A stretch of 64,000 nucleotides of DNA, from assembly GCA_037431425.1 (NCBI GenBank), contig GCA_037431425.1_4129.1. The stretch is one strand, 5' to 3'. Position numbers and translations under genes: made by a program. How positions within the stretch are numbered: position 1 is the first letter of the stretch; each line of letters opens with the position of its first letter. Shown one piece after another: positions 1 through 51,630 of the stretch. This DNA is from a phage. The notes under the pieces are model-generated. The model ran no database searches, was not told the origin of the DNA, and saw only the letters and a list, made by a program, of their open reading frames with translations.

Positions 1-13
1 ATAAGGAATTCAA

Positions 14-1978
14 ATGGCTAAGAAAGAAAGTGCTGTCCTACAGGAACATGATGTTCAACGACTAAACGATTATCAACATGCTCGTTTACGTACTGAGATG
101 TATCTCGGTTCTCGTTCAGTACATGAAAGTCAAGTACTGATTTTTGGTGAATCAGGATATGAAGTTAAGAATGTAGAATGGGTTCCTGCAATTCTTACTG
201 CTACGCGTGAAATTATTGATAATAGCTTGGATGAATTTAAAAAAGCTGGAACTAAAGAACCTGTTTTGAAAGTTGATTTCAATGAAGAAGAACTATCATT
301 TGAGATTAGTGATAATGGTCGTGGTATTCCAATTGATTATGTTCCAGAGTATCAAAAAAACCTATGTACAATGGTAATGACTGAAACAAAAACTGGTCGT
401 AACTTTGACGATTCCAAACGTGATGAAACTATTGGTCAGAATGGTTTGGGTGGTTCAGTTGCGATGATTGTTAGTTCTAAGGCAGAATTGGAAATTCATC
501 GTCAAGGTCGTCCATATAAAACACAAAGCAGTAATGATGGTTATGATGGGTTTTATAAGTTCAATCAGAAGTTCGAAGAAGGAACTATTATGTTCCCTGA
601 ACTTCATGTACATGAACCTACAATTAGAAAGGTACAAACCGATAAAACTGGTACAACAATTCGTTTTACATTGAGTAAAGAAGTTTTTCCAAATAGAAAA
701 TTACCTACTGAATTACTTTACAGTATTCTTAAAGAAATGGCAGCCGCTAATCCGACTTATAAAATATTTTTGAATGGTAAACGTATTGTCATTAAAGGTA
801 ATACAGAGAAAGCATTGTTCAATGCATCGAAATTAATGCAGTTGCATGTTAAAGATGATTCATTCAATTTTAACAGTACTTTTTATATTGTTCCTAATGC
901 AGTATCTAACATGAACACTAACTTTCATATGCATGGGTTGGTTAACAATGCACCTGCGTTTGATGGTGGTACACATCTTGACACATTTAAAAAATTCTTT
1001 TCTTTGGGTGTAGGAGCAGCTCTAGAGAAAGAATCCAAGAAACGTAGAATGAAACCAAACCGTTCTGACATTGAAGAAGGATTGTTGATTTATAACGTCA
1101 CGACGATGAAAGCACCTTCGTTCAATTCACAGATTAAATCTAAACTAACAAATGAAAATGTAATTCGTCCTATTCAACAAGCAATGAGTTCTGAGTGGTT
1201 TGATGAATTGGTTAAGAAGAATAAAGAGTGGGTTGATGAAATTTTTGAACGCTGTGCAGCCCGTACTAATAAGAAAGATGCTGAAGAAGATCGCCGATTA
1301 GCTAAAAAGCTTCTAAAAGGAAAGGTTGCAAAATTACTTGATAGTACTGGTACTGATCGTTCACAGTGTATTTTATTGATTGCAGAAGGTGACTCTGCTA
1401 TTTCCAACATGGCAAGTGCTCGTATACCAAGTATTCATGGGATTCTACCATTGCGTGGAAAGATTATGAACGTCAGTGGTTCTGAAAAGACTAAAGAATT
1501 AATGGATTCTATGGCATTGCATGACATAATGGCTAGTATCAATTTAGTTCCAGGAGTTAAAGCTGACCGAGCAGACCTGAACTACGGTAAGCTTTATATT
1601 TGTGCAGATGAAGATGAAGATGGTAAGAATATCGGAGCATTAGTATGTAACTTCCTGTTCAAATTCTGGCCTGAATTGTTCCAAGATCCAGAAAATCCAT
1701 TTGTGTACATATTCAAAACTCCATTTATCATTCTAGAGAAAGGTAAGGAAACAAAATACTACTATGGTCATGACGTACATGAATACAATCCTGACGATTG
1801 GAAAGGTTGGAAAGCAACTCGTGCAAAAGGGCTTGGTACGTTAGAAAAATCAAACTTCCGCGACGCATTCACACATAGTGTTGCAGTAGCAATCACTGAT
1901 GATGGACGTCTTGGTGAAACTCTTGATTTGATTTTCAACAAGAAACGTGCAGATGACCGCAAGAACTGGATGGAATAA
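14..1978 (+). CDS. DNA topoisomerase II large subunit (T4 gp39-like; contiguous gp39+gp60-equivalent)
   Basis: 654 aa; GHKL ATPase motifs EIIDNSLDE and DNGRGIP, Toprim-like IAEGDSA; collinear with recalled T4 gp39. Confidence 0.9.
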   Translation: MAKKESAVLQEHDVQRLNDYQHARLRTEMYLGSRSVHESQVLIFGESGYEVKNVEWVPAILTATREIIDNSLDEFKKAGTKEPVLKVDFNEEELSFEISDNGRGIPIDYVPEYQKNLCTMVMTETKTGRNFDDSKRDETIGQNGLGGSVAMIVSSKAELEIHRQGRPYKTQSSNDGYDGFYKFNQKFEEGTIMFPELHVHEPTIRKVQTDKTGTTIRFTLSKEVFPNRKLPTELLYSILKEMAAANPTYKIFLNGKRIVIKGNTEKALFNASKLMQLHVKDDSFNFNSTFYIVPNAVSNMNTNFHMHGLVNNAPAFDGGTHLDTFKKFFSLGVGAALEKESKKRRMKPNRSDIEEGLLIYNVTTMKAPSFNSQIKSKLTNENVIRPIQQAMSSEWFDELVKKNKEWVDEIFERCAARTNKKDAEEDRRLAKKLLKGKVAKLLDSTGTDRSQCILLIAEGDSAISNMASARIPSIHGILPLRGKIMNVSGSEKTKELMDSMALHDIMASINLVPGVKADRADLNYGKLYICADEDEDGKNIGALVCNFLFKFWPELFQDPENPFVYIFKTPFIILEKGKETKYYYGHDVHEYNPDDWKGWKATRAKGLGTLEKSNFRDAFTHSVAVAITDDGRLGETLDLIFNKKRADDRKNWME

Positions 1979-2028
1979 TATAGGCTAATGGGGGACATGG
2001 TGTTCCCCTTTTATAAAGAGACAATGGA

Positions 2029-3441
2029 ATGGCTAAAAGTAAAAAAACAGAAAATCATAATATCGATAACCAAACGCTAACTCTACTAGATTATAACAGT
2101 TCTGATTATGTGAATACCACATCATTAGAGTATTCAATGTACACACTAGATCGTGCAATTCCTGGCATTGACGGTCTAAAGAGTTCACAACGAAAAGCAA
2201 TTTTCACATTATCTAAAATCAGTGGTGAAATTAAAACAGTATCATGTGCTGGTAAAATGATCAGCGATGGCATCTATCTTCATGGTGACACATCTGCATC
2301 AGGAACACTTCAGAACTTAGCATCACCAGTAGCCAATAATTATCCACTAATAGGTAAACGTGGTGGATTTGGTACACAAGTAAACAGCACACCAGCATCT
2401 GCACGTTACACATATGTGAGGAAGAATAAGAGTACTGAGATGCTTGTTTTGCGTGATGTGGATATTATTCCAATGAAAGAGAACTATGACGGGACAACAT
2501 ACGAACCAGTTCATTTCTTGCCTATCATTCCATTATCATTGTTTGGTAATGATAGTATGTCAGTTGGTTATAAGAGCACAATTCTACCACATAAAATTGA
2601 AGATATTATTGATAATTGTATTCGTGCTATTGATAAAAAACCACTAAAAGAAATGACACCATACTATGTGTCATGTGGTGCAAGCGATGTAGTAACCAAG
2701 CTGGATGAAAACAAGTACGAGTTTTATGGTAAAGCACAAGTCATTGATGCAAGTACTGTTAAAGTTACAGGATTACCACCTAATTATGGTATTGAGAAGT
2801 TCATTGAAAAACTCATCAAGATGAGTGATGATGGGGAAATTCGTGATTATGACAATAACAGTACTGATGTAATTGATATTACAATTAAACTTCCACGTGG
2901 AACGTCAGCTAAATGGACAGAGATGGATGTTATTGAGTATTTTGGTATTAACAAAAAAATAACTCAGCATTTAACTGTTCTTGGGGAAAATGGTAAAGTA
3001 AAAGTTTACGATACTACTATGGACTTGATTAAAGACTTTGTGGATTTTCGTTTCAAATATTATATCAAGCGTTATGAAAAGAAACTTGATGATTGTGCCG
3101 CAGAGGTTCGTTATAAAATTCTAATTAAAGAATGTTTCGATAATGATATGATTGCTAAGGTAAAAGGATTTGCCAACCGTGCGGAGATGGTTGAATTCGT
3201 TAAATCATTAAATGTCGAAATTCAAGCAACTGAAGATAATATTCAAAGCATTGTAAACTTCCCTTCATATCGCTGGACACAAGATAATTATCAATCAGTT
3301 CTACAAGATATCCAGGACAATCTAGATTTGATGGATAAGTACAATGAATTACTATCTAACCATGATCTGATTTGGGATATTTATAAATACGAACTTAAAG
3401 AACTGAAAAAGATTGATTTCACACCTAAATCTGATAATTGA
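2029..3441 (+). CDS. DNA topoisomerase II medium subunit (T4 gp52-like, GyrA-type)
   Basis: 470 aa; motifs YSMYTLDRAIPGIDGLK, ASARYTYVR, FLPIIPLSLFGN match recalled gp52/GyrA N-terminal domain. Confidence 0.9.
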   Translation: MAKSKKTENHNIDNQTLTLLDYNSSDYVNTTSLEYSMYTLDRAIPGIDGLKSSQRKAIFTLSKISGEIKTVSCAGKMISDGIYLHGDTSASGTLQNLASPVANNYPLIGKRGGFGTQVNSTPASARYTYVRKNKSTEMLVLRDVDIIPMKENYDGTTYEPVHFLPIIPLSLFGNDSMSVGYKSTILPHKIEDIIDNCIRAIDKKPLKEMTPYYVSCGASDVVTKLDENKYEFYGKAQVIDASTVKVTGLPPNYGIEKFIEKLIKMSDDGEIRDYDNNSTDVIDITIKLPRGTSAKWTEMDVIEYFGINKKITQHLTVLGENGKVKVYDTTMDLIKDFVDFRFKYYIKRYEKKLDDCAAEVRYKILIKECFDNDMIAKVKGFANRAEMVEFVKSLNVEIQATEDNIQSIVNFPSYRWTQDNYQSVLQDIQDNLDLMDKYNELLSNHDLIWDIYKYELKELKKIDFTPKSDN

Positions 3442-7515: not shown

Positions 7516-7785
7516 ATGATAACTGATGATGGTAAATTTAGTTTCAAAGATGTAACATTAGTGTCAAAGAATGGAAGATTCATGTTTGAGGATAGAAAAA
7601 ATACCAAATATGTATATGAAGTTTCACATGATATGTTTAAAGTTTTATTAGTTGCTTCAGCACAAGCTGAAAGAACTGGAATTAAAAATAAGGCAAATTC
7701 TTTTAATTTTTTATTAAATCAACTTGAGATGACAGAAGAACTTTTCACGGCTTTATTATATGATTCAGCCGATTGGATTCTATAA
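7516..7785 (+). CDS. hypothetical protein
   Basis: 89 aa ORF. Confidence 0.45.
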   Translation: MITDDGKFSFKDVTLVSKNGRFMFEDRKNTKYVYEVSHDMFKVLLVASAQAERTGIKNKANSFNFLLNQLEMTEELFTALLYDSADWIL

Positions 7786-7808
7786 CACGTACACAGAAGG
7801 AAATACAC

Positions 7809-8762
7809 ATGACCACACTATGGACTGAAAAATATCGCCCACAAACAATGGAAGATTATGTATCAAAAAATGATGCTCTACGTCAGAAAATGGAAGAATG
7901 GATTAAAACTGGCGACATTCCACATATTGGTTTTTTTGGCCCAGCAGGAACTGGTAAAACATCTGCAATTAAAGTACTTATTAATGGTTTGGTTCAGAAC
8001 GGACACCTCGATCCAAGTGACGTAACCACACTTAATATGTCAGATGAAGGTATTGATGCTGTGCGTGATAAAATCGATGCCGCAGCAAAACTATCATGCT
8101 TTGGTCGATATCGTATTTTTGTTCTTGAAGAAATGGAACAAATGAACCATAAAGCACAAGGTAGCTTGAAGCGTGTTATGGAAGACTATCATGAAAATGC
8201 TCGCTTTATTTTAACAAGTAATGAACCACATAAAATTCAAAAACCTATTATCTCTCGCGTTCAAGTCATTACAATTGAAAAACATGACATGGAACAGTTC
8301 ATGACAAGAATTTATAATATCCTTCTCGCTGAAGGTGTTGATCTGAGTAGTGATGATAGTGTTGAACAAGTTCAAAAGTACATCAATGCTTCATATCCAG
8401 ATTTTCGTAAAACGCTAAACGTATTGCAAAGTTCAGTTGTTGATGGTAAACTAGTCAAACTTGAGGATAGTATTGAAAATTCTGCCGGATATCGCACTGC
8501 AATCATTGATGCGTTGAAGGCAGGAAATATCCGTCAAATGCGAGAGCAAATTGTTCAATCTATTCCTGATGATGAAATGGATGCATTTTTCTCGTACTTG
8601 TACCGAAATGCGGAAATGTTCAGTACTGACGAAATCACACTGATGAAGATTAAAGTTAAAATTCGTGATGCTGTTGTTAAGCAAGCAACTGTATCCGACC
8701 GTGAAATGAATCTTAGTGCATTGTTGTGTGAGATTGATCTAATTTGTTCGGGGAACATGTAA
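7809..8762 (+). CDS. AAA+ ATPase, clamp-loader large subunit-like (RFC / T4 gp44 family)
   Basis: EKYRP, Walker A GPAGTGKT, Walker B FVLEE, FPDFRKT motif as in recalled T4 gp44; ATG 7809 after GAAGGAAA RBS. Confidence 0.65.
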   Translation: MTTLWTEKYRPQTMEDYVSKNDALRQKMEEWIKTGDIPHIGFFGPAGTGKTSAIKVLINGLVQNGHLDPSDVTTLNMSDEGIDAVRDKIDAAAKLSCFGRYRIFVLEEMEQMNHKAQGSLKRVMEDYHENARFILTSNEPHKIQKPIISRVQVITIEKHDMEQFMTRIYNILLAEGVDLSSDDSVEQVQKYINASYPDFRKTLNVLQSSVVDGKLVKLEDSIENSAGYRTAIIDALKAGNIRQMREQIVQSIPDDEMDAFFSYLYRNAEMFSTDEITLMKIKVKIRDAVVKQATVSDREMNLSALLCEIDLICSGNM

Positions 8763-12806: not shown

Positions 12807-12854
12807 GTTTATAACTGAGCAGCACATCATATTAACTTAAACGAGGAAATCTCA

Positions 12855-13991
12855 ATGGCAGAGAAAGAAATCAATCCAAAAAAATCGTCAACAGTTACTA
12901 AAAACACAAAACGTTCTTCCAAAACTGCGGCGAAGGGTCACACAATTGATGCAAGTGATATTTTCAACCAAACAACAAAGTCACTCCCAGTACTAAAAGA
13001 TGTAAAGGGTAATACCATGTCACTAACAGTTCAAAACATCAACACTGTTGGTACAACTGCTGGTGCGGCGGTTGGTCGTTTGGCTGATGAAATTATGTCT
13101 AAGGTTAACGTAACCGATGACAATACCGAGTTTGGTAAATCAATCACTACAATTCTCACATTGACCCGTGCGGTTGATATTGATAGTCTTCAGGAAGATA
13201 AATCAATTGTTGGTCGCATTAAGAAATTCTTTGTTAATGCCCAACAGAAAGTCGGCGATCAATACAAAAATAGTAAAGAACAAATTGATGAAATTATGAA
13301 AACTCTACAAACTGGCATCAATCGTCAACATGGAGAGTGTGAGTGGCTTGATAAAGCATATAATGAAAACAAAGAATATTTGTTCGAATTACGTGATACA
13401 TTAGTTGGTTTAGAAGAAGTAACTAAAGCACAAGATGCAGTACTGGCAGAAATGCAAGCAAACAAAGACGTGGACTCTTTTGCTATTCAAGAGCAAAAGA
13501 TGATTTGTGAAGCACTTTCTAAGCAAGAAGACAAGATTCGCCGACTTATCATGATGTGTGAACTGAGTGGTCCACGATTGATGAGTATGAAAAAAGTAAA
13601 CTTAAACACTGTTTCTAAGTTTGAAGATTTGAAATCAGTAGTAATTCCTGCATGGAAATCGCAATTGGCTGAACAGCTAATCTCTGAGCGTCAACGTAAG
13701 GATAATGAATTGGGAAATCTAATTGACAATGAAACAAATCGTTTATTAGAGACTAACTCTAAGATGGTTGCAGCTAATATGCTGGATGCTGCAAAGGCAA
13801 ACAATCGTGGTATTGTGGATATTAAAACCTTGCGTAATGTACATAAAACAATGATTGACAGCATCGAAGCTGTTATTGAAGAAGAGAAAAAAGGTAAAAT
13901 GGAACGTGAACGTGCGAAACAAGAAATTGCACAACTTTCACACGAACTCGAAGACACACTTCGTGAAATTGCAGAAAAAGCTAACAAGTAA
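12855..13991 (+). CDS. hypothetical coiled-coil protein
   Basis: 378 aa, long charged helical segments; GAGGAAA RBS; function not recognised. Confidence 0.6.
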   Translation: MAEKEINPKKSSTVTKNTKRSSKTAAKGHTIDASDIFNQTTKSLPVLKDVKGNTMSLTVQNINTVGTTAGAAVGRLADEIMSKVNVTDDNTEFGKSITTILTLTRAVDIDSLQEDKSIVGRIKKFFVNAQQKVGDQYKNSKEQIDEIMKTLQTGINRQHGECEWLDKAYNENKEYLFELRDTLVGLEEVTKAQDAVLAEMQANKDVDSFAIQEQKMICEALSKQEDKIRRLIMMCELSGPRLMSMKKVNLNTVSKFEDLKSVVIPAWKSQLAEQLISERQRKDNELGNLIDNETNRLLETNSKMVAANMLDAAKANNRGIVDIKTLRNVHKTMIDSIEAVIEEEKKGKMERERAKQEIAQLSHELEDTLREIAEKANK

Positions 13992-24148: not shown

Positions 24149-24400
24149 ATGAGTGAACATAGTGCGGTGCTTAAAAAGATTTTAAAGGAAATTGATGGTG
24201 AGTTTAATGTCACAGAAGAAGAATATCAGCATTGGAAGAAAGATTTCGAACAACTAACCGAGTATGATAAAGTGTTCAATATGATTGGCGTAATTAGCCA
24301 GTACTTACTTGGTGGAGGACGTGCAAGTGCTTCAATTCTGGCATCTGCAATCATCTGTACATCACGATGGTGTGATGAAAAAAGTTTGGAAGATTTCTAA
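24149..24400 (+). CDS. hypothetical protein
   Basis: ATG 24149 after GGAG RBS; track ORF from 24110 is Met-rich and probably over-extended. Confidence 0.45.
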   Translation: MSEHSAVLKKILKEIDGEFNVTEEEYQHWKKDFEQLTEYDKVFNMIGVISQYLLGGGRASASILASAIICTSRWCDEKSLEDF

Positions 24401-24452
24401 ATAAGATGCTATAATATATCAGAGTTCCTTAACAATATAAAAAGGATTTTAT

Positions 24453-26333
24453 ATGAAACCTATCCGAGTACTATCTCTTTTTAATGGGATGAGTGTAGGA
24501 TACATGGCATTAAAAGATGCTGGTATCCCTGTTGAAAAATATTATTCATCCGAAATTGACAAATTTGCTATAGCTGAATCCCAAGCTAACTTCCCCGATA
24601 TCATCCAATTGGGTGATGTAACTAGATGGAGAGAATGGGATATTGAATGGGATAAGATAGATCTACTGATGGGTGGTTTTCCATGCTTCCCAGCAGGAAC
24701 TATGATAATGACAAATAAAGGTCATAAAGATATAAAAGATATAAAAATTGGTGATATGGTTCTTACACACACTGGACAGTACCAAAAAGTATTGAGTACT
24801 GGTGTTAAAAAGGCTCCCACTCGTATTATTACAGGTCAAGGTCACCTTCCAATTGAATGTACCGATAATCATCCATTTTGGAGTAGGGAACGTCTAGCCA
24901 ATAAATGGAATAATCAACACCGAAGATATGATTCTGTGTTTTCTGAACCGCAATGGGTAAATGCTATAGATCTTACTAAACAAAGTTATATTTGTAATGT
25001 TAAAAATATTACACATAATACAGTAAGTGATAAAGATGAAAAATATTGGTATTTTGTTGGTCGTTTTATGGGTGATGGATGTGCTAGTGTATCTAATAAC
25101 AAATACAGTATTACTATTGTAGATTCATTAGATAAAGTTGATGAATTGAAAAAATGTTTTGATGATTTTGGATACAAATACACATTAGCTATTAAAGATA
25201 ATCATGTAAGATGTGATATATATAGCAAAAAGCTTTATGATGAATTAATATGTATTGGGCATAAATCACAAAACAAATGTTTACCACCTGAAATATTCAA
25301 TGAAACTATCAATAACAAAGAAGCATTTATTAAAGGATACATGGATGCAGATGGTTGTGAGGATAAACACAATAAAAAATACAAATTTACCACCACAAGT
25401 TATAAAATAGTTCTTGGTATGCAACAGTTAATCTTAGATACTTATCAACGTCATTGTACTATTAGTCAAACTGTTCCAAAAACAAAAAAATATATAAAAA
25501 ATAAGTTGGTTAATCAGCTTCCGTATTGGAATGTTCATTTTAGCTATAATAAAATTAAAAGAGATGATGTAATATATGATGAAATTTATATATGGAATCG
25601 TGGTGTAAAAAGTAATGTACCAACCGGAGAATGGAAAACCGTTTACAATATTGAAGTTGCAGTAGATAACACATATACAGCGAACAATATTGTAGTTCAT
25701 AACTGCCAAGCGTGGTCAGTTGCAGGTAAACAGGGTGGAATAAATGATCCTCGTGGTATGTTATTCCATACAATGGTTGATATTTACCAGCACATAAAAA
25801 GTCTCAATCCAGACTTGAAAGTACTGTTCGAGAATGTTAAAATGAAAGAAGATTTCAAGCAATACATTAATAGTGTTCTTGAGATGACACCAGTACTGAT
25901 AAATTCCCAGCATTATACGCCTCACTTCAGGCAGAGATATTACTGGTACAGTACTGATAAACTTTTTATACCACCTGCATTATCAAATGCACCTAAACTT
26001 CAAGATATTATTGAAGATGGTTGGTACACTGACAGAACCGCTTCGTACTGTATAGATGCTAACTATTTTAAGGGTGGGGATTGTAACCAGTACTTTAATA
26101 AATCAAGAAGACAAATTGTTTTCAAAGAACCTGATATCGATAGGGATTTCCTTCTTGAACATGGTAAGCGAAATGTGGACTATCGTCATTTAACAGTGCA
26201 AGAGTGTTGCATGTTGCAAGGAATTGATGTAAACTACTTCAAAGTTAGTAGTTCAACACAAGCATACAAAATGCTTGGGAATGGATGGACTATGCCAGTT
26301 ATATCACACTTACTACGAGATATATTCTTTTGA
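24453..26333 (+). CDS. DNA (cytosine-5)-methyltransferase precursor containing an intein
   Basis: 626 aa; motif I SLFNGMSVG; motif IV GGFP|CQAWSVAG split by 340-aa insertion; ENV motif (LFENV) in C-extein; extein about 286 aa. Confidence 0.8.
   Translation: MKPIRVLSLFNGMSVGYMALKDAGIPVEKYYSSEIDKFAIAESQANFPDIIQLGDVTRWREWDIEWDKIDLLMGGFPCFPAGTMIMTNKGHKDIKDIKIGDMVLTHTGQYQKVLSTGVKKAPTRIITGQGHLPIECTDNHPFWSRERLANKWNNQHRRYDSVFSEPQWVNAIDLTKQSYICNVKNITHNTVSDKDEKYWYFVGRFMGDGCASVSNNKYSITIVDSLDKVDELKKCFDDFGYKYTLAIKDNHVRCDIYSKKLYDELICIGHKSQNKCLPPEIFNETINNKEAFIKGYMDADGCEDKHNKKYKFTTTSYKIVLGMQQLILDTYQRHCTISQTVPKTKKYIKNKLVNQLPYWNVHFSYNKIKRDDVIYDEIYIWNRGVKSNVPTGEWKTVYNIEVAVDNTYTANNIVVHNCQAWSVAGKQGGINDPRGMLFHTMVDIYQHIKSLNPDLKVLFENVKMKEDFKQYINSVLEMTPVLINSQHYTPHFRQRYYWYSTDKLFIPPALSNAPKLQDIIEDGWYTDRTASYCIDANYFKGGDCNQYFNKSRRQIVFKEPDIDRDFLLEHGKRNVDYRHLTVQECCMLQGIDVNYFKVSSSTQAYKMLGNGWTMPVISHLLRDIFF
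24684..25703 (+). mobile_element. intein with LAGLIDADG homing-endonuclease domain
   Basis: starts CFPAGTMIMT (block A), TDNHPFW (block B TxxH), two LAGLIDADG-like motifs (FVGRFMGDGCAS, FIKGYMDADGCE), ends VVHN followed by Cys +1. Confidence 0.8.
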
Positions 26334-36027: not shown

Positions 36028-36143
<116 letters not shown>

Positions 36144-36150
36144 CAAAAGA

Positions 36151-36224
36151 CGGGGTATAGCACAATTGGATAGTGCAAGAGAATTCTAATCTCTAGGTTG
36201 GGGGTTCAAGTCCCTCTACCTCGG
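36151..36224 (+). tRNA. tRNA-Arg (anticodon UCU)
   Basis: manual fold: acceptor CGGGGTA/TACCTCG, anticodon stem AGAGA/TCTCT, loop ATTCTAA, T-loop TTCAAGT. Confidence 0.75.
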
Positions 36225-36248
36225 CCTACTTCAATTAAAGGTTAAACC

Positions 36249-36413
36249 ATGACGCATGAAGAATGGATGAATGACATTAATTTTAGATATGCAGGTATCG
36301 GTAACTGGAGAAAGTATCATTGGGAAATCATATCAGACCCAGCAGAATACGATAAACTTATGAATCATGAAGTGTATCCGTGGTTCTTTATTGAAATAAT
36401 GGTACGATTATGA
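36249..36413 (+). CDS. MTHEEW-family small protein (54 aa), tandem copy 1
   Basis: not in track; MTHEEWMNDINFRYAGIG... Confidence 0.45.
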   Translation: MTHEEWMNDINFRYAGIGNWRKYHWEIISDPAEYDKLMNHEVYPWFFIEIMVRL

Positions 36414-36570
36414 CACATGAAGAATGGATGAATGACATTAATTTTAGATATTCGGGTATCGGTAAATGGCTAAAGTATCATTGGGAATTCATTTCAGAGC
36501 CACATCTGTATGATAAACTTATCAACGATTCTGCATATAAAATGTACTTAATTGAACTACTGGTACGAAC

Positions 36571-36574
<4 letters not shown>
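36410..36574 (+). CDS. MTHEEW-family small protein (54 aa), tandem copy 2
   Basis: MTHEEWMNDINFRYSGIG...; start overlaps upstream stop. Confidence 0.45.
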
Positions 36575-36743
<169 letters not shown>

Positions 36744-36747
36744 AATC

Positions 36748-37188
<441 letters not shown>

Positions 37189-37216
37189 GTATCTTAACAA
37201 CAGAAGGTATATTGAA

Positions 37217-37456
37217 ATGGGTAAGTATTTTGTGAGTTATAGTTATAATGTATCACGAAAGATTCCACGCGGTGACGGAATGGGATGGTCTTATGATGCA
37301 TATACTTTAAATGAGTCATGTATCATCGAATTACAAGAAAAAGACCTTGACATTTTAAAAATCAAACAATATATTCTTGATGTTGAATTGGCACATCGTA
37401 CTGATACCTATCCAGATGTAAACAACATCAGCATCTTAGTACTAACCAAAGTATAA
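37217..37456 (+). CDS. hypothetical protein
   Basis: ATG 37217 after AGAAGG RBS; track start 37187. Confidence 0.5.
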   Translation: MGKYFVSYSYNVSRKIPRGDGMGWSYDAYTLNESCIIELQEKDLDILKIKQYILDVELAHRTDTYPDVNNISILVLTKV

Positions 37457-37526
37457 GATAAAAAGAACTTTACTAAATAATTCCACTGGAGATTAATATG
37501 TTTAAAGATGAACGTCCAGATTTGTA

Positions 37527-37565
<39 letters not shown>

Positions 37566-37571
37566 GAATTC

Positions 37572-37925
37572 CACAATCAGACGTATATGGTGTAAGTTAC
37601 GTCGATGCTATCCAGAACAAGATCTCTGGTACTCTAGGAAGTGGTGAATGTTAACCTAGACGGGTTTGATAATTGGACGATAGGCAATTATTACTTGACT
37701 AGCAGGTTGAAACTAGAGGTGACAGTCCTTCACCAAACTGGAAAGCCGGATGGACTTTTATTTAAAAGGGTAAGGCGTGGAAATATGTTTACTGTAGTTG
37801 CTTTTAGTAGCCTGTACGCCCCACGTCAAGGTAGTCGAAAGGCAAGTTAAAACGGGTGGTTATAAAGCTGAATTAACAGCGGCGTTTAAAAGCGTCACCA
37901 TCCATTTTTTTAATTAAAGTTGGCT
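37572..37925 (+). ncRNA. candidate structured noncoding RNA (unclassified)
   Basis: noticeably more GC-rich than flanks; only a poor 69-codon ORF; directly downstream of consensus promoter; inside tRNA cluster. Confidence 0.3.
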
Positions 37926-37927
37926 AT

Positions 37928-38295
<368 letters not shown>

Positions 38296-38305
<10 letters not shown>

Positions 38306-38324
38306 TATTCAGTACTGATATAAT
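38296..38324 (+). promoter_or_regulatory. sigma70-type promoter (TGGACA-17-TATAAT) for tRNA-Ser
   Basis: -10 ends 6 nt before tRNA 5' end; spacer contains TTCAGTACTG. Confidence 0.55.
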
Positions 38325-38330
38325 TAATTT

Positions 38331-38417
<87 letters not shown>

Positions 38418-38429
38418 TAAATTGTTCCA

Positions 38430-38516
<87 letters not shown>

Positions 38517-38566
38517 CTGATATTGTTATTATATGAGTTCTAACGATAATGAAACACTAGGAACAT

Positions 38567-38737
<171 letters not shown>

Positions 38738-38761
38738 ACGAAATTACAATAGGAAATTAAA

Positions 38762-38947
38762 ATGCAACTTTTAATTCTTTCAATATTGTATATTATTATA
38801 ATGGTTCCGATATCAATACGTTTAATTACAGTTGAACGATTTTTATCGAAACATGGAAATAGATCTATGATATTTGTACCAATCGGGTTGATATTGTTTG
38901 GTATATTTTCATTTATAATGGGAATTAACGCTACATTCATTTCATAG
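38762..38947 (+). CDS. small membrane protein
   Basis: 61 aa, two hydrophobic helices; RBS AGGAAA. Confidence 0.5.
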   Translation: MQLLILSILYIIIMVPISIRLITVERFLSKHGNRSMIFVPIGLILFGIFSFIMGINATFIS

Positions 38948-38956
38948 GAAACAAAT

Positions 38957-39214
<258 letters not shown>

Positions 39215-39316
39215 ATAAAAAGAACGAAAAGTAGACGGTCGTATTCAGTACTGAATCACCAGGGGAGGTTGTGATTCCCGATTCAGTAGCTTAAAAGCAG
39301 ACCCGTATGTGCCTAA

Positions 39317-39369
<53 letters not shown>

Positions 39370-39370
39370 T

Positions 39371-39416
<46 letters not shown>

Positions 39417-39417
39417 T

Positions 39418-39551
<134 letters not shown>

Positions 39552-39553
39552 TA

Positions 39554-39737
<184 letters not shown>

Positions 39738-39817
39738 TAAATAATACAGTAAGATGGCCTCCCCTCCATATCATGAGAGTATAGAGACTTGTTGGTTATC
39801 TTACTTTTAAACAAACT

Positions 39818-39891
39818 GCCTCAATAGCAAAATTGGTAATGCACACGTTTTGTAAGCGTGAGATTTTTCCGTTCGAGTCGGAATTGGGGCA
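39818..39891 (+). tRNA. tRNA-Thr (anticodon UGU)
   Basis: manual fold: acceptor GCCTCAA/TTGGGGC (one GU), anticodon stem CACGT/GCGTG, loop TTTGTAA, T-arm TTCCG-TTCGAGT-CGGAA; variable loop 6 nt (slightly atypical). Confidence 0.65.
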
Positions 39892-39908
39892 CAAAATAAA
39901 GGCACACT

Positions 39909-50664: not shown

Positions 50665-51630
50665 GTGAAAAAACTTGATTTGAATACAATTGCAGATGAA
50701 GTTCTGGATGAATGCTTTGGTAATGAAGAAGTGAATACGCTGGATGCGTTAGAACCAGTTCAAGAAAAAGATAACATTGACGAGAAAAATAATGGTAATT
50801 TCAAGTTTAATATTAGTCTTAAGCGACCAGCAAATGTAACAAATGAAGATATTATTCGTGATATTCAAGCAGGTATTAACGTAAAGAAAAATACTGAACT
50901 ATTAGTTCGTTATAATTACGGTTTGATTATTGATGTTGCAAGTAAATGCACGTGTTATATTCCATTTGAAGATAAGATTTCATATGGCATTGAGGGATTC
51001 ATGCGAGCATTAAAAACATTTGACCTTAGTAAGAATGTAAAGTTCGCTACGTATGCATCGTCAAGTATCTATATGACTGTATACAATGAAAGCTCAGATG
51101 CTAATCATCTGGTCCACTTCCCTCGTTACATGAGTGTTAATAAGATACAAGTGAAACGCTTCTGTCATAATTATGAGCGTCAGCATGGTTGTCGTCCTAC
51201 ACCTGAAATTATTTCTGAAGAGACTGGTATTGAAATCCAGCACGTTAAGAATTGTTTATTATTCCAAAGTGAATATACTTCACTGGATGCACCATTGGAT
51301 GGTGTTTCTGATGGGACGATGAGTGATATTCTGCATTCATCTGAAGGTGATTATAATCTTAATGTTGACAGTATTCGTGCACCGTTGCGTTATACCATCA
51401 ACGAACTAACTAATGAGTTGAGTGCTAAGGAATGTGAGATTATTCAACGTGTTCATGGATTAGGTGAATTTAATCCTGAAACACTACGTGAAATTGCTGA
51501 TAGTGGTTTTATTGATGACAATGGTAAGTGTGTAAAATCCAGATCTTCGGTTCATCGTAAATACAGTGATGCTCTTAAGAAACTCAAGAAATTAGTGCTC
51601 GCTAAAGGGTACGAATACGAAGATTTCTAA
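50665..51630 (+). CDS. RNA polymerase sigma factor, sigma-70 family (regions 2 and 4)
   Basis: 321 aa; GTG start after AGGAGAAG RBS; region 2-like FMRALKTFD...KFATYASSSI and region 4 HTH-like LREIADSGF...SRSSVHRKYSDALKKLKKL. Confidence 0.6.
   Translation: MKKLDLNTIADEVLDECFGNEEVNTLDALEPVQEKDNIDEKNNGNFKFNISLKRPANVTNEDIIRDIQAGINVKKNTELLVRYNYGLIIDVASKCTCYIPFEDKISYGIEGFMRALKTFDLSKNVKFATYASSSIYMTVYNESSDANHLVHFPRYMSVNKIQVKRFCHNYERQHGCRPTPEIISEETGIEIQHVKNCLLFQSEYTSLDAPLDGVSDGTMSDILHSSEGDYNLNVDSIRAPLRYTINELTNELSAKECEIIQRVHGLGEFNPETLREIADSGFIDDNGKCVKSRSSVHRKYSDALKKLKKLVLAKGYEYEDF

What the first reader, a model, noticed from the sequence alone, without database searches (positions are those of the whole stretch)
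24684..25703. LAGLIDADG intein inserted exactly at the catalytic Pro-Cys motif of a C5-cytosine methyltransferase
The methyltransferase motif IV reads GGFP | intein | CQAWSVAG: the intein starts with Cys (CFPAGTMIMT), contains a TxxH block (TDNHPFW) and two LAGLIDADG-like motifs, and ends VVHN followed by Cys +1, which is itself the predicted catalytic cysteine of the PCQ motif. Splicing would therefore be required to create the active site, a classic insertion at a maximally conserved site. Inteins in phage DNA methyltransferases are not something I recall as commonly described.
Basis: partly seen in the sequence, partly recalled or inferred. Interest (0 to 1): 0.7.

Follow-up and report, generated by a model that had tools for sequence, protein, structure and literature searches.

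The report
Intein splitting a phage DNA methyltransferase
A jumbo E. coli phage's DNA cytosine methyltransferase gene is interrupted, exactly at its catalytic cysteine, by a self-splicing protein element (an intein carrying a homing endonuclease); this is ordinary intein biology in a host enzyme for which I found no published description.

Summary
ORF 24453-26333 (+) encodes a 626-aa C5 cytosine methyltransferase. A 340-aa in-frame insert (24684-25703) splits motif IV as GGFP | CFPAGT...VVHN | CQAWSVAG.

The insert has every sequence hallmark of a class-1 intein with a two-motif LAGLIDADG homing endonuclease, and a confident model matches PI-SceI and TliVMA.

About 40 related jumbo-phage records, including 121Q, carry the uninterrupted gene reading GGFP-CQAWSVAG. 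Five records are occupied. Extein DNA beside the intein has a different ancestry from the rest of the genome, as expected from homing with co-conversion.

The splicing domain and exteins are under strong purifying selection. The endonuclease core of this variant is much more diverged, so its activity is uncertain.

The case is not isolated. Related inteins sit at the same Pro|Cys site in P1-like phage RCS47 Dmt, Lactobacillus phage Nyseid, Mannheimia phage 587AP2 and Erwinia phage pEa_SNUABM_5. They also sit there in 108 of the 150 best metagenomic cluster representatives. None of the records I inspected is annotated as an intein.

Eight full-text searches found inteins only in N6/N4 phage methylases, not in C5 enzymes.

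Verdict: a real intein, a new member of a known kind, of moderate interest.

The parts
24386..24415 (+). Candidate sigma-70-like promoter (TTGGAA, 18 nt, TG-TATAAT) in the intergenic gap before the gene. An AAGGA ribosome-binding site lies a few bases before the ATG at 24453.
   Evidence: One search gives a 10/12 match with an extended -10. The scan as a whole found no more sites than shuffled sequence, so this is a candidate only. The RBS was read from the sequence.
24453..24683 (+). N-extein, methyltransferase residues 1-77. It contains motif I (LFNGMSVG, 24477-24500) and the first half of motif IV (GGFP, 24672-24683).
   Evidence: PF00145 matches profile positions 1-72. The region aligns with 121Q gp91. 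dN/dS is 0.03.
24684..25703 (+). Intein of 340 aa (39.6 kDa). The Hint splicing domain is formed by about residues 1-105 and 300-340. A LAGLIDADG homing-endonuclease domain is inserted between them.
   Evidence: Pfam Hint_2 and LAGLIDADG_3 score above their gathering scores. The region is a precise gap in 121Q. The AlphaFold2 model has pLDDT 88.3 and pTM 0.85. Foldseek matches PI-SceI at 6.5e-19, TliVMA intein with TM 0.68, and also PI-PfuI, PI-TkoII and I-DmoI.
24684..24686 (+). Cys1 codon (TGC), the intein N-terminal nucleophile (block A).
   Evidence: Invariant in the family alignments. 107 of 108 relatives at this site begin with CF.
24861..24872 (+). Block B TxxH (T60-D-N-H63 in intein numbering).
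   Evidence: T60 and H63 are conserved in at least 90% of aligned family members. This stretch aligns with block B of the gp41-1 intein.
25044..25085 (+). LAGLIDADG motif 1 (YWYFVGRFMGDGCA), with catalytic Asp at intein residue 131.
   Evidence: G126, D131 and G132 are invariant in A2. In the model this is helix 119-131 followed by a beta-hairpin.
25317..25361 (+). LAGLIDADG motif 2 (KEAFIKGYMDADGCE), with catalytic Asp at intein residue 223.
   Evidence: G218, D223 and G224 are invariant in A2. The Pfam LAGLIDADG_3 hit covers intein residues 212-254.
25641..25703 (+). Blocks F and G (VYNIEVAVDNTYTANNIVVHN), ending in His339-Asn340.
   Evidence: V320, V325, Y331 and N340 are invariant. 101 of 108 relatives at this site end in HN.
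25704..25706 (+). Cys+1 codon (TGC). It is the first C-extein residue, the nucleophile for the second splicing step, and the Cys of the motif IV Pro-Cys dipeptide.
   Evidence: In 121Q this codon follows the Pro codon directly. Its role as the methyltransferase catalytic nucleophile rests on established knowledge of C5 methyltransferases.
25704..26333 (+). C-extein, methyltransferase residues 78-286 of the spliced protein, plus the stop codon. It contains CQAWSVAG, ENV (25830-25838), RQRYYW (25929-25946) and GNG (26277-26285).
   Evidence: The spliced 286-aa sequence scores PF00145 at 6.2e-35. It matches DNMT3A/3B, M.HhaI and M.HaeIII chains. dN/dS is 0.08-0.16.
24551..24683 (+). Upstream flank tract with A4-like ancestry. 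The genome backbone to its left is 121Q-like.
   Evidence: Informative-site analysis and identity profile.
25740..25860 (+). Downstream flank tract with A4-like ancestry. A further A4-like patch lies at about 26100-26260.
   Evidence: Informative-site analysis and identity profile.

Best explanation
The insert is a genuine class-1 intein carrying a LAGLIDADG homing endonuclease. It sits in the C5 cytosine methyltransferase of an Asteriusvirus jumbo phage. The gene is translated as a 73-kDa precursor in which the motif IV loop is split between Pro77 and the catalytic Cys.

Proposed splicing, all inferred from conserved residues and the established class-1 mechanism: (1) Cys1 performs an N-S acyl shift, helped by block B Thr60/His63. 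(2) The thioester passes to Cys+1. (3) Asn340, helped by His339, cyclises and releases the intein. (4) An S-N shift leaves a normal Pro-Cys peptide bond.

This yields a 33-kDa enzyme with an intact GGFPCQAWS active site, so splicing is a precondition for methyltransferase activity. The same cysteine serves first as the splicing nucleophile and then as the nucleophile on cytosine C6.

The released 39.6-kDa intein is, or recently was, a site-specific endonuclease. In mixed infections it would cut the uninterrupted allele at the Pro-Cys coding sequence, and recombinational repair would then copy the intein together with adjacent extein DNA.

Shown here: the anatomy, the empty alleles, the fold, the selection pattern and the mosaic flanks. 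Inferred: splicing itself, endonuclease activity and its target.
For: - **ORF and junctions.** One uninterrupted ORF with exact junctions.
- **Family and fold.** Hint_2 and LAGLIDADG_3 score above Pfam thresholds. The N- and C-terminal blocks align with the gp41-1 intein. The AlphaFold2 model has pLDDT 88.3, and its best PDB matches are intein endonucleases PI-SceI, TliVMA, PhoVMA, PI-PfuI and PI-TkoII, with I-DmoI for the nuclease domain.
- **Conserved residues.** All family-invariant residues are present: C1, G5, P64, D131, K198, D223 and N340, plus T60/H63.
- **Empty sites.** 121Q gp91 has a precise empty site. A synthetic spliced junction is contiguous in 42 phage records and broken exactly at the junction in the 5 occupied Asteriusvirus records.
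- **Selection.** dN/dS is 0.04-0.12 in the N-terminal splicing region and 0.03-0.16 in the exteins. That is expected only if the precursor must splice to give a useful enzyme.
- **Mosaic flanks.** The backbone is 121Q-like, but 24551-24683, 25740-25860 and 26100-26260 are A4-like. Identity to the intein-less allele is lowest right next to the insertion, at 75-88%, against 95-100% in neighbouring genes.
- **Recurrence.** The same site is occupied in unrelated C5 methyltransferases that also have empty alleles. P1 Dmt is 2265 bp, and RCS47 Dmt is 1023 bp longer.
- **Family size.** 108 of the 150 best cluster representatives have the xP|C...S/T junction.
Against: - No experiment shows splicing or cleavage.
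- Block F has Asn where many class-1 inteins have Asp (VYN rather than VYD; the comparison is from my own knowledge). The -1 residue is Pro, which is unfavourable for some engineered inteins (also from my own knowledge). Both features are conserved across the whole family, which argues they are tolerated.
- The endonuclease core of this variant departs from the family. It lacks a 7-9 residue basic hairpin after motif 1 (RKNRKNSYQY in relatives). It has IKNKLVNQ where relatives have IEGRxVNQ.
- Against the A4/TH47/JNE01 variant, the core shows dN of about 0.6 and dN/dS of 0.47-0.70, compared with 0.09-0.12 within that variant. Homing ability of this particular copy is therefore doubtful.
- Jumbo-phage genomes are mosaic in general. 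Mosaic flanks are compatible with ordinary recombination and do not prove homing.
Confidence: 0.82

Rival explanations
1. The intein still splices, so the methyltransferase is made. Its endonuclease, in the variant found in the window, UE-S1 and ph0011, has lost or changed activity. In this lineage the element is a passenger inherited vertically or by ordinary recombination, at a late stage of the homing cycle.
For: V1 denotes the window/UE-S1/ph0011 variant and V2 the A4/TH47/JNE01 variant. V1 against V2 endonuclease core: dN about 0.6 and dN/dS 0.47-0.70, while V2 copies compared among themselves give 0.09-0.12 at similar or larger dS. V1 lacks the conserved basic hairpin and has R274K and IEG-to-IKN changes in a family-conserved motif. 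Relatives with decayed or absent endonuclease domains exist at the same site, at 140-289 aa. They include P0001, in a methyltransferase 66% identical to this one.
Against: Both catalytic Asp residues, the conserved Lys198 and the full double alpha-beta-beta-alpha-beta-beta-alpha fold are retained. The three V1 copies are 99-100% identical although their flanking genome segments differ, which fits recent spread. dS is saturated, so the ratios are rough. A shift in target specificity would give the same signal.
Confidence: 0.35
2. The insert is a dead intein that no longer splices, so the gene is in effect a methyltransferase pseudogene.
For: There are no direct data on splicing. Block F has Asn rather than Asp, and the -1 residue is Pro. 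At least one related phage, SD-6_S16, carries a frameshifted copy of this methyltransferase, so the gene can be lost.
Against: All catalytic splice-junction residues are intact. Exteins and the splicing domain are under strong purifying selection across occupied alleles whose synonymous sites are saturated. There is no stop codon or frameshift in 1020 bases of 25-38% G+C DNA. The unusual residues are shared by more than 100 relatives.
Confidence: 0.06
3. The intein has been co-opted as a post-translational switch. Splicing is conditional, for example held back by a Cys1-Cys+1 disulfide or by zinc. The phage would thereby time or limit methyltransferase activity.
For: Cys1 and Cys+1 are both present, and the intein has 10 cysteines. 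Conditional splicing through such disulfides or zinc is documented for other inteins: from my own knowledge for the Pyrococcus MoaA/PolII inteins, and via the zinc-sensitive mycobacterial DnaB reference cited in PMC8616854. The active site cannot exist before splicing.
Against: Nothing in the sequence distinguishes a regulated intein from a constitutive one. About 40 related phage records manage without the intein. Its sporadic distribution is that of a selfish element.
Confidence: 0.08
4. The insert is not an intein but a lineage-specific functional domain of the methyltransferase, such as a target-recognition or regulatory domain.
For: C5 methyltransferases do carry variable regions.
Against: The variable region of C5 enzymes lies between motifs VIII and IX, not inside motif IV (established knowledge). 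The insert is absent, with a clean junction, from orthologues that are 87% identical. It has the Hint and LAGLIDADG folds and motifs.
Confidence: 0.01

Closest known systems
PI-SceI (yeast VMA1 intein) and archaeal VMA, PI-PfuI and PI-TkoII inteins: class-1 inteins with an inserted LAGLIDADG endonuclease
   Same: Two-domain architecture, with a Hint splicing domain split by a double-motif LAGLIDADG nuclease. Cys1, block B TxxH, terminal His-Asn and Cys+1 are all present. Insertion is at a catalytic site of a conserved enzyme. These are the best structural matches (PI-SceI 6.5e-19; TliVMA TM 0.68).
   Different: Only 13-17% sequence identity. The host protein is a DNA C5 methyltransferase rather than V-ATPase, ribonucleotide reductase or a polymerase. 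At 340 aa it is smaller. No separate DNA-recognition region like that of PI-SceI was looked for or established.
Inteins of actinophage DNA methylases (DNMT-1/2 of Kelley et al. 2016, PMC5050341; Dorothy_75 family of Gosselin et al. 2023, PMC9957025)
   Same: LAGLIDADG inteins in orphan phage DNA methyltransferases, with patchy distribution and evidence of transfer and within-gene recombination. They are detectable relatives of this intein (24% identity, E 1e-20).
   Different: Those hosts are N6/N4 (amino) methyltransferases. The junction I read in phage Clifton is HV|C...KN|CPLQFD, not a catalytic nucleophile. Here the host is a C5 enzyme and the +1 Cys is its catalytic residue.
Unannotated inteins at the same Pro|Cys site of other phage C5 methyltransferases: P1-like RCS47 and Ro157c2YLVW Dmt, Lactobacillus phage Nyseid, Mannheimia phage 587AP2, Erwinia phage pEa_SNUABM_5, and Asteriusvirus A4, TH47 and JNE01
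   Same: Identical insertion point (xP|CF...HN|CQ/K), the same intein family (23-55% identity) and the same size class. Empty alleles exist in sister genomes.
   Different: Outside Asteriusvirus the exteins are only distantly related (BLAST bits 18-67, against 100-160 for the inteins). A4, TH47 and JNE01 carry a different endonuclease-core variant, about 45% identical in the core. None of these records is annotated as containing an intein, and I found no paper describing them.
gp41-1 and related cyanophage-like mini and split inteins
   Same: These are the closest solved relatives of the splicing domain by sequence (E 3e-4; blocks A, B and G align).
   Different: They have no endonuclease domain, their host is a helicase, and their +1 residue is Ser.

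Membership tests
Intein (class 1) | Cys or Ser at position 1 | tested here: met
   Cys1 is encoded at 24684-24686 and is invariant in the family alignment.
Intein (class 1) | Block B TxxH | tested here: met
   T60-D-N-H63 at 24861-24872. Both residues are at least 90% conserved.
Intein (class 1) | C-terminal Asn (usually His-Asn) followed by Cys, Ser or Thr at +1 | tested here: met
   The sequence reads ...VVHN|C. N340 is invariant, and 101 of 108 relatives have HN.
Intein (class 1) | Hint fold | tested here: met
   Pfam Hint_2 scores 33.3 bits against a cutoff of 28.4. The AlphaFold2 model has pLDDT 88.3, and its top PDB matches are inteins. This rests on a predicted, not a solved, structure.
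Intein (class 1) | In-frame insertion in a conserved host protein whose homologues lack it and are contiguous at the site | tested here: met
   121Q gp91 reads GGFP-CQAWSVAG. 42 records have the contiguous junction.
Intein (class 1) | Autocatalytic protein splicing that ligates the exteins | not testable with these tools
   Supported only indirectly, by purifying selection on the exteins and the splicing domain.
Intein (class 1) | Pfam Intein_splicing model (PF14890) | tested here: inconclusive
   25.1 bits, below the 35.8 gathering score. Only the C-terminal part of the profile matched, because the model does not span the endonuclease insert.
LAGLIDADG homing endonuclease (single-chain, two-motif) | Two LAGLIDADG motifs, each ending in an acidic catalytic residue | tested here: met
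   GRFMGDG with D131 and GYMDADG with D223, both invariant in the family.
LAGLIDADG homing endonuclease (single-chain, two-motif) | Duplicated alpha-beta-beta-alpha-beta-beta-alpha fold | tested here: met
   The secondary-structure order in the model fits. I-DmoI matches with TM 0.6 on its own length. Pfam LAGLIDADG_3 scores 42.8 bits against a cutoff of 22.5.
LAGLIDADG homing endonuclease (single-chain, two-motif) | Site-specific cleavage of the intein-less allele | not testable with these tools
   The evidence is indirect and mixed. Flank mosaicism and patchy distribution argue for it. The diverged DNA-binding features of this variant argue against it.
C5 cytosine DNA methyltransferase (PF00145) | Profile match across the catalytic domain | tested here: met
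   9.6e-29 for the precursor and 6.2e-35 for the spliced sequence. The NCBIfam dcm model scores 94.4 bits, just below its 100.65 cutoff.
C5 cytosine DNA methyltransferase (PF00145) | Motif IV Pro-Cys with the catalytic cysteine | tested here: met
   It is present only as two halves, GGFP and CQAWS, which splicing would join. It is contiguous in 121Q.
C5 cytosine DNA methyltransferase (PF00145) | Motifs I (FxGxG), VI (ENV) and X (GNG/GNS) | tested here: met
   LFNGMSVG, LFENV and LGNGW were read from the translation and align to DNMT3A.
C5 cytosine DNA methyltransferase (PF00145) | 5-methylcytosine formation at a defined DNA sequence | not testable with these tools
   No methylation data were available.
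Bacterial intein-like (BIL) domain | Hint domain without a +1 nucleophile requirement and without an endonuclease, sited in variable regions of the host protein | tested here: not met
   This insert has Cys+1 and an endonuclease domain, and it sits in the most conserved motif of the host.

The most novel reading that the evidence does not exclude
This intein belongs to a large, undescribed clade whose main home is the catalytic Pro|Cys dipeptide of enzymes that attack pyrimidine C6 with a cysteine thiol. These are C5 DNA methyltransferases of very different subfamilies and, in relatives, thymidylate-synthase-type enzymes (LTP|C..HN|CH in Aeromonas phage PS1; LPP|C..HN|CH in P0055). The clade would then be specialised for a -1 Pro/+1 catalytic-Cys context. 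It would move between non-orthologous hosts through the short conserved coding sequence of that motif. It would make DNA modification in many phages dependent on, and perhaps regulated by, protein splicing.
Probability: 0.2. Interest if true: 0.65.

Novelty: new member of a known kind. Interest (0 to 1): 0.45.

Why it matters
- **New host class.** It adds C5 DNA methyltransferases, cut at their catalytic cysteine, to the enzymes that inteins colonise. The data suggest this site is heavily used in phage and metagenome sequences yet goes unannotated. The records I inspected call these genes 'cytosine methyltransferase', 'hypothetical protein', or two separate genes.
- **Dual-use cysteine.** One cysteine must act first in splicing and then in catalysis. 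This gives a simple natural system for testing whether splicing gates DNA modification during infection.
- **Tolerance of -1 Pro.** The family always has proline at -1, a context that (from my own knowledge) many engineered inteins handle poorly. It could therefore be useful for protein engineering.
- **Phage genomics.** The element marks a recombination hotspot and explains a local patch of foreign ancestry inside an otherwise 121Q-like genome.

Tried and rejected
- **Literature.** Eight full-text searches combined intein or extein with cytosine/C5/Dcm/Dmt methyltransferase terms and phage names. Targeted reads followed. None describes an intein in a C5 methyltransferase. The UE-S1 genome paper does not mention one. 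Novikova 2016 has no mention of methylases in its main text, and its supplements are not held. This is absence from an open-access library, not proof of absence.
- **Structure prediction input.** I repeated it with the window sequence plus metagenomic relatives only.
- **Foreign-origin signal from composition.** The endonuclease core is 25-27% G+C against 35-38% in the exteins, but this lies within the range of the surrounding genome. It is not informative.
- **Other inteins in the window.** A family HMM run against all six-frame ORFs found only this one.
- **Internal promoters or terminators suggesting separate endonuclease expression.** The scan found nothing beyond chance.
- **SD-6_S16 as a possible second mobile element near the site.** It turned out to be a 64-bp deletion, not an insertion.
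- **First regex classification of the top 150 relatives.** It was too crude, so I replaced it with HMM-defined boundaries.
Full report
**What is there.** The window comes from an Asteriusvirus jumbo coliphage. The gene is 99.7% identical to Escherichia phage UE-S1 and 99.2% to ph0011. ORF 24453-26333 (+) encodes 626 aa. Residues 1-77 and 418-626 match the C5 cytosine methyltransferase family (PF00145, 9.6e-29). Residues 78-417 match Hint_2 (7.7e-8) and LAGLIDADG_3 (6.5e-11), both above Pfam's thresholds. The junctions read GGFP|CFPAGTMIMT and NNIVVHN|CQAWSVAG, at exactly the coordinates in the finding (24684-25703). With the insert removed, the 286-aa sequence scores better against PF00145 (6.2e-35). 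It keeps motifs I, IV, VI and X.

**It is an insertion, not part of the enzyme.** Phage 121Q gp91 (286 aa, 87% identical in the shared parts) aligns with one clean 340-residue gap between Pro77 and Cys418 and reads GGFPCQAWSVAG. I built a 200-nt synthetic spliced junction from the window's own flanks. It is contiguous in 42 phage records: 121Q, PBECO4, phAPEC6, GAP32, CBB and other jumbo phages, plus a few smaller Vibrio and Pseudoalteromonas phages. It is broken exactly at the junction in the five occupied Asteriusvirus records, UE-S1, ph0011, A4, TH47 and JNE01. At the DNA level the boundary is ambiguous by three bases, because the intein's first codon and the +1 codon are both TGC.

**Anatomy of the intein.**
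- A 17-sequence family alignment has these invariant residues: Cys1, Gly5, Pro64, Gly126/Asp131/Gly132 (LAGLIDADG 1), Lys198, Gly218/Asp223/Gly224 (LAGLIDADG 2) and Asn340. Block B Thr60 and His63 are at least 90% conserved. The window's copy has all of them.
- By sequence, the N- and C-terminal blocks align with the solved gp41-1 intein.
- An AlphaFold2 model built on 15 sequences is confident (pLDDT 88.3, pTM 0.85). It shows a beta-rich splicing domain interrupted by a duplicated alpha-beta-beta-alpha-beta-beta-alpha domain.
- Its best PDB matches are intein endonucleases: PI-SceI at 6.5e-19, TliVMA with TM 0.68, then PhoVMA, PI-PfuI and PI-TkoII. I-DmoI matches the nuclease domain alone.
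- The element is class 1: it has Cys1, and it lacks the class-3 Trp-Cys-Thr signature (class definitions are from my own knowledge).

**How it most likely works.** By the established four-step mechanism (summarised in PMC8616854, citing Mills, Johnson and Perler 2014), Cys1 forms a thioester at the Pro77-Cys78 bond. The acyl group moves to Cys+1. Asn340 cyclises to release the intein. An S-N shift then restores a Pro-Cys peptide bond.

Cys+1 is the cysteine of the motif IV Pro-Cys dipeptide. In C5 methyltransferases this residue is the nucleophile that attacks cytosine C6 (established knowledge). The active-site loop therefore does not exist until splicing has happened. None of these chemical steps is shown here; they are inferred from the conserved residues.

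The indirect support is selection. Between occupied alleles whose synonymous sites are near saturation, dN/dS is 0.03-0.16 in the exteins and 0.04-0.12 in the N-terminal splicing region. That is hard to explain if the precursor were a dead end.

**Evidence for mobility.**
- The distribution is patchy: 5 occupied against about 40 empty records.
- I classified informative sites using 121Q (empty) and A4 (occupied, with a diverged backbone). The window is 121Q-like up to about 24550 and from about 26260 onwards. It is A4-like at 24551-24683, 25740-25860 and 26100-26260.
- Identity to 121Q is 95-100% in the upstream genes. It falls to 85-88% approaching the insertion and to 75-78% just after it.
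- This is the pattern expected if the intein arrived by double-strand-break repair and brought flanking extein DNA with it. General phage mosaicism could contribute, so I treat homing as inferred.
- The three copies of this variant are 99-100% identical across the gene, while their neighbouring regions differ.

**Two endonuclease variants.** V1 is the variant in the window, UE-S1 and ph0011. V2 is the variant in A4, TH47 and JNE01.
- A4's intein ends and adjacent exteins are 91-98% identical to the window's at the DNA level. TH47's are less similar, at about 73-89%.
- The endonuclease cores of A4 and TH47 are only about 49-75% identical to the window's at the DNA level. Whole-intein protein identity to A4, TH47 and JNE01 is 53-55%.
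- Within V2 the core is under purifying selection (dN/dS 0.09-0.12). Between V1 and V2, dN is about 0.6 and dN/dS is 0.47-0.70.
- V1 lacks a basic hairpin that relatives conserve after motif 1. It also differs in the family's IEGRxVNQ motif.
- Either the V1 nuclease is relaxing towards loss, or it has changed specificity, or its core was swapped in from an unsampled donor. I cannot tell which.

**This site is used widely.** A tblastn search of the intein against 50,697 phage records found 67 records. Reading the junctions shows the same xP|C...HN|C site in:
- P1-like RCS47 Dmt (GGTP|C...|CQAFSIAG);
- Mannheimia phage 587AP2;
- Lactobacillus phage Nyseid (GFP|C...|CQDISVAG);
- Erwinia jumbo phage pEa_SNUABM_5 (SPP|C...|CKGFSTAG).

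Reference P1 dmt is 2265 bp. The RCS47 and Ro157c2YLVW dmt genes are exactly 1023 bp longer, and P1 isolate OP279344 also carries the intein. This is an independent occupied/empty pair.

In metagenomic proteins, 27 of 31 relatives carry PF00145. Of 39 family members examined, 35 match the intein junction pattern, nearly all after a Pro. Their sizes run from 140 to 367 aa, covering full, decayed and mini forms.

A profile search of 1.84 billion cluster representatives gave 4,274 hits at E<=1e-30. Of the best 150, 108 have a full-length intein at an xP|C...S/T junction. Across subfamilies the inteins are better conserved than their exteins.

**Comparison with the literature.** Inteins in phage DNA methyltransferases are published, but for N6/N4 enzymes of actinophages (PMC5050341; PMC9957025; PMC11855218). 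These are distant relatives of this intein at a different kind of site. I found no paper describing an intein in a C5 methyltransferase. None of the phage records I inspected annotates one. The library covers open-access papers only, so prior description elsewhere remains possible.

**Verdict.** The element is a standard kind of thing, a class-1 LAGLIDADG intein at a catalytic residue, in a host enzyme and site that appear undescribed but are common in sequence data. I rate it a new member of a known kind, with interest 0.45.

Noticed in passing
window 24453-24683 + 25704-26333 (spliced methyltransferase): Among solved structures, the spliced 286-aa enzyme is most similar by sequence to the catalytic domains of mammalian DNMT3A/3B (E 2.6e-24; KPIRVLSLFNGMSVG against KPIRVLSLFDGIATG). 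These rank ahead of M.HhaI and M.HaeIII (about 1e-17 to 1e-16). It is a small, Dnmt3-like phage methyltransferase.
   Followed up: no
L014:781-3039 (Aeromonas phage PS1 'thymidylate synthase'); also P0055: A related intein (30% identity) sits at SLTP|C...THN|CHFSF. This looks like the Pro-Cys-His catalytic motif of thymidylate-synthase-type enzymes. P0055 has LPP|C...HN|CHMS. The context matches motif IV of C5 methyltransferases: a Pro followed by a Cys that attacks pyrimidine C6.
   Followed up: partly
L006:2270-5557 (phage RCS47 dmt) compared with P1 NC_005856 66412-68676: The bifunctional Dmt of P1-like phages exists as an empty allele (reference P1, 2265 bp) and as an occupied allele 1023 bp longer (RCS47, Ro157c2YLVW). 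P1 isolate OP279344 is also occupied. The intein is at GGTP|CQAFS. The records annotate only 'dmt'.
   Followed up: partly
L017:2368-3164 (Salmonella phage SD-6_S16, OR699182): This Asteriusvirus has a 64-bp frameshifting deletion in the methyltransferase, starting 14 nt downstream of the intein insertion point (CDS nt 246-309). It could be a scar of imprecise break repair at the homing site, a random deletion or an assembly error.
   Followed up: partly
P0032, P0039, P0049 (metagenomic C5 methyltransferases): A second intein site occurs in C5 methyltransferases, directly after motif VI (WENV|CF...VVHN|CGAFSS). Some of these proteins have several intein-profile matches.
   Followed up: no
L012:6001-8351 (metagenomic contig with P0016): An intein-containing methyltransferase gene lies in a phage replication module (Pol III alpha, DnaB, primase). 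It is followed by two tiny ORFs and then a separate 101-aa PF00145 ORF. The methyltransferase may be interrupted a second time, by something other than an intein.
   Followed up: no
L007:1264-3100 (Mannheimia phage 587AP2): The intein-containing N-terminal part (annotated 'hypothetical protein') ends ...VVHN|CQSDKGG and then stops. The rest of the methyltransferase is a separate, overlapping CDS. This points to a frameshift just after the intein, so either a disrupted gene or a sequencing error.
   Followed up: no
window 24684-25703 compared with L002 and L003: Identity between the window and A4 peaks at both intein-extein junctions (91-98%). It decays both into the intein core (about 50-60%) and outwards into the exteins. 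I have no tested explanation for this junction-centred pattern. An endonuclease-core swap or repeated gene conversion are possibilities.
   Followed up: partly
window 5-3438, 7764-8759, 12819-13988, 36057-39892, 50665-51627: Context genes are type II topoisomerase subunits, a clamp-loader ATPase, a TelA-like protein, six tRNA genes (Ser, Arg, Ser, Met, Asn, Thr) and a sigma-70-like factor. Several ORFs of 365-807 aa have no Pfam match.
   Followed up: no
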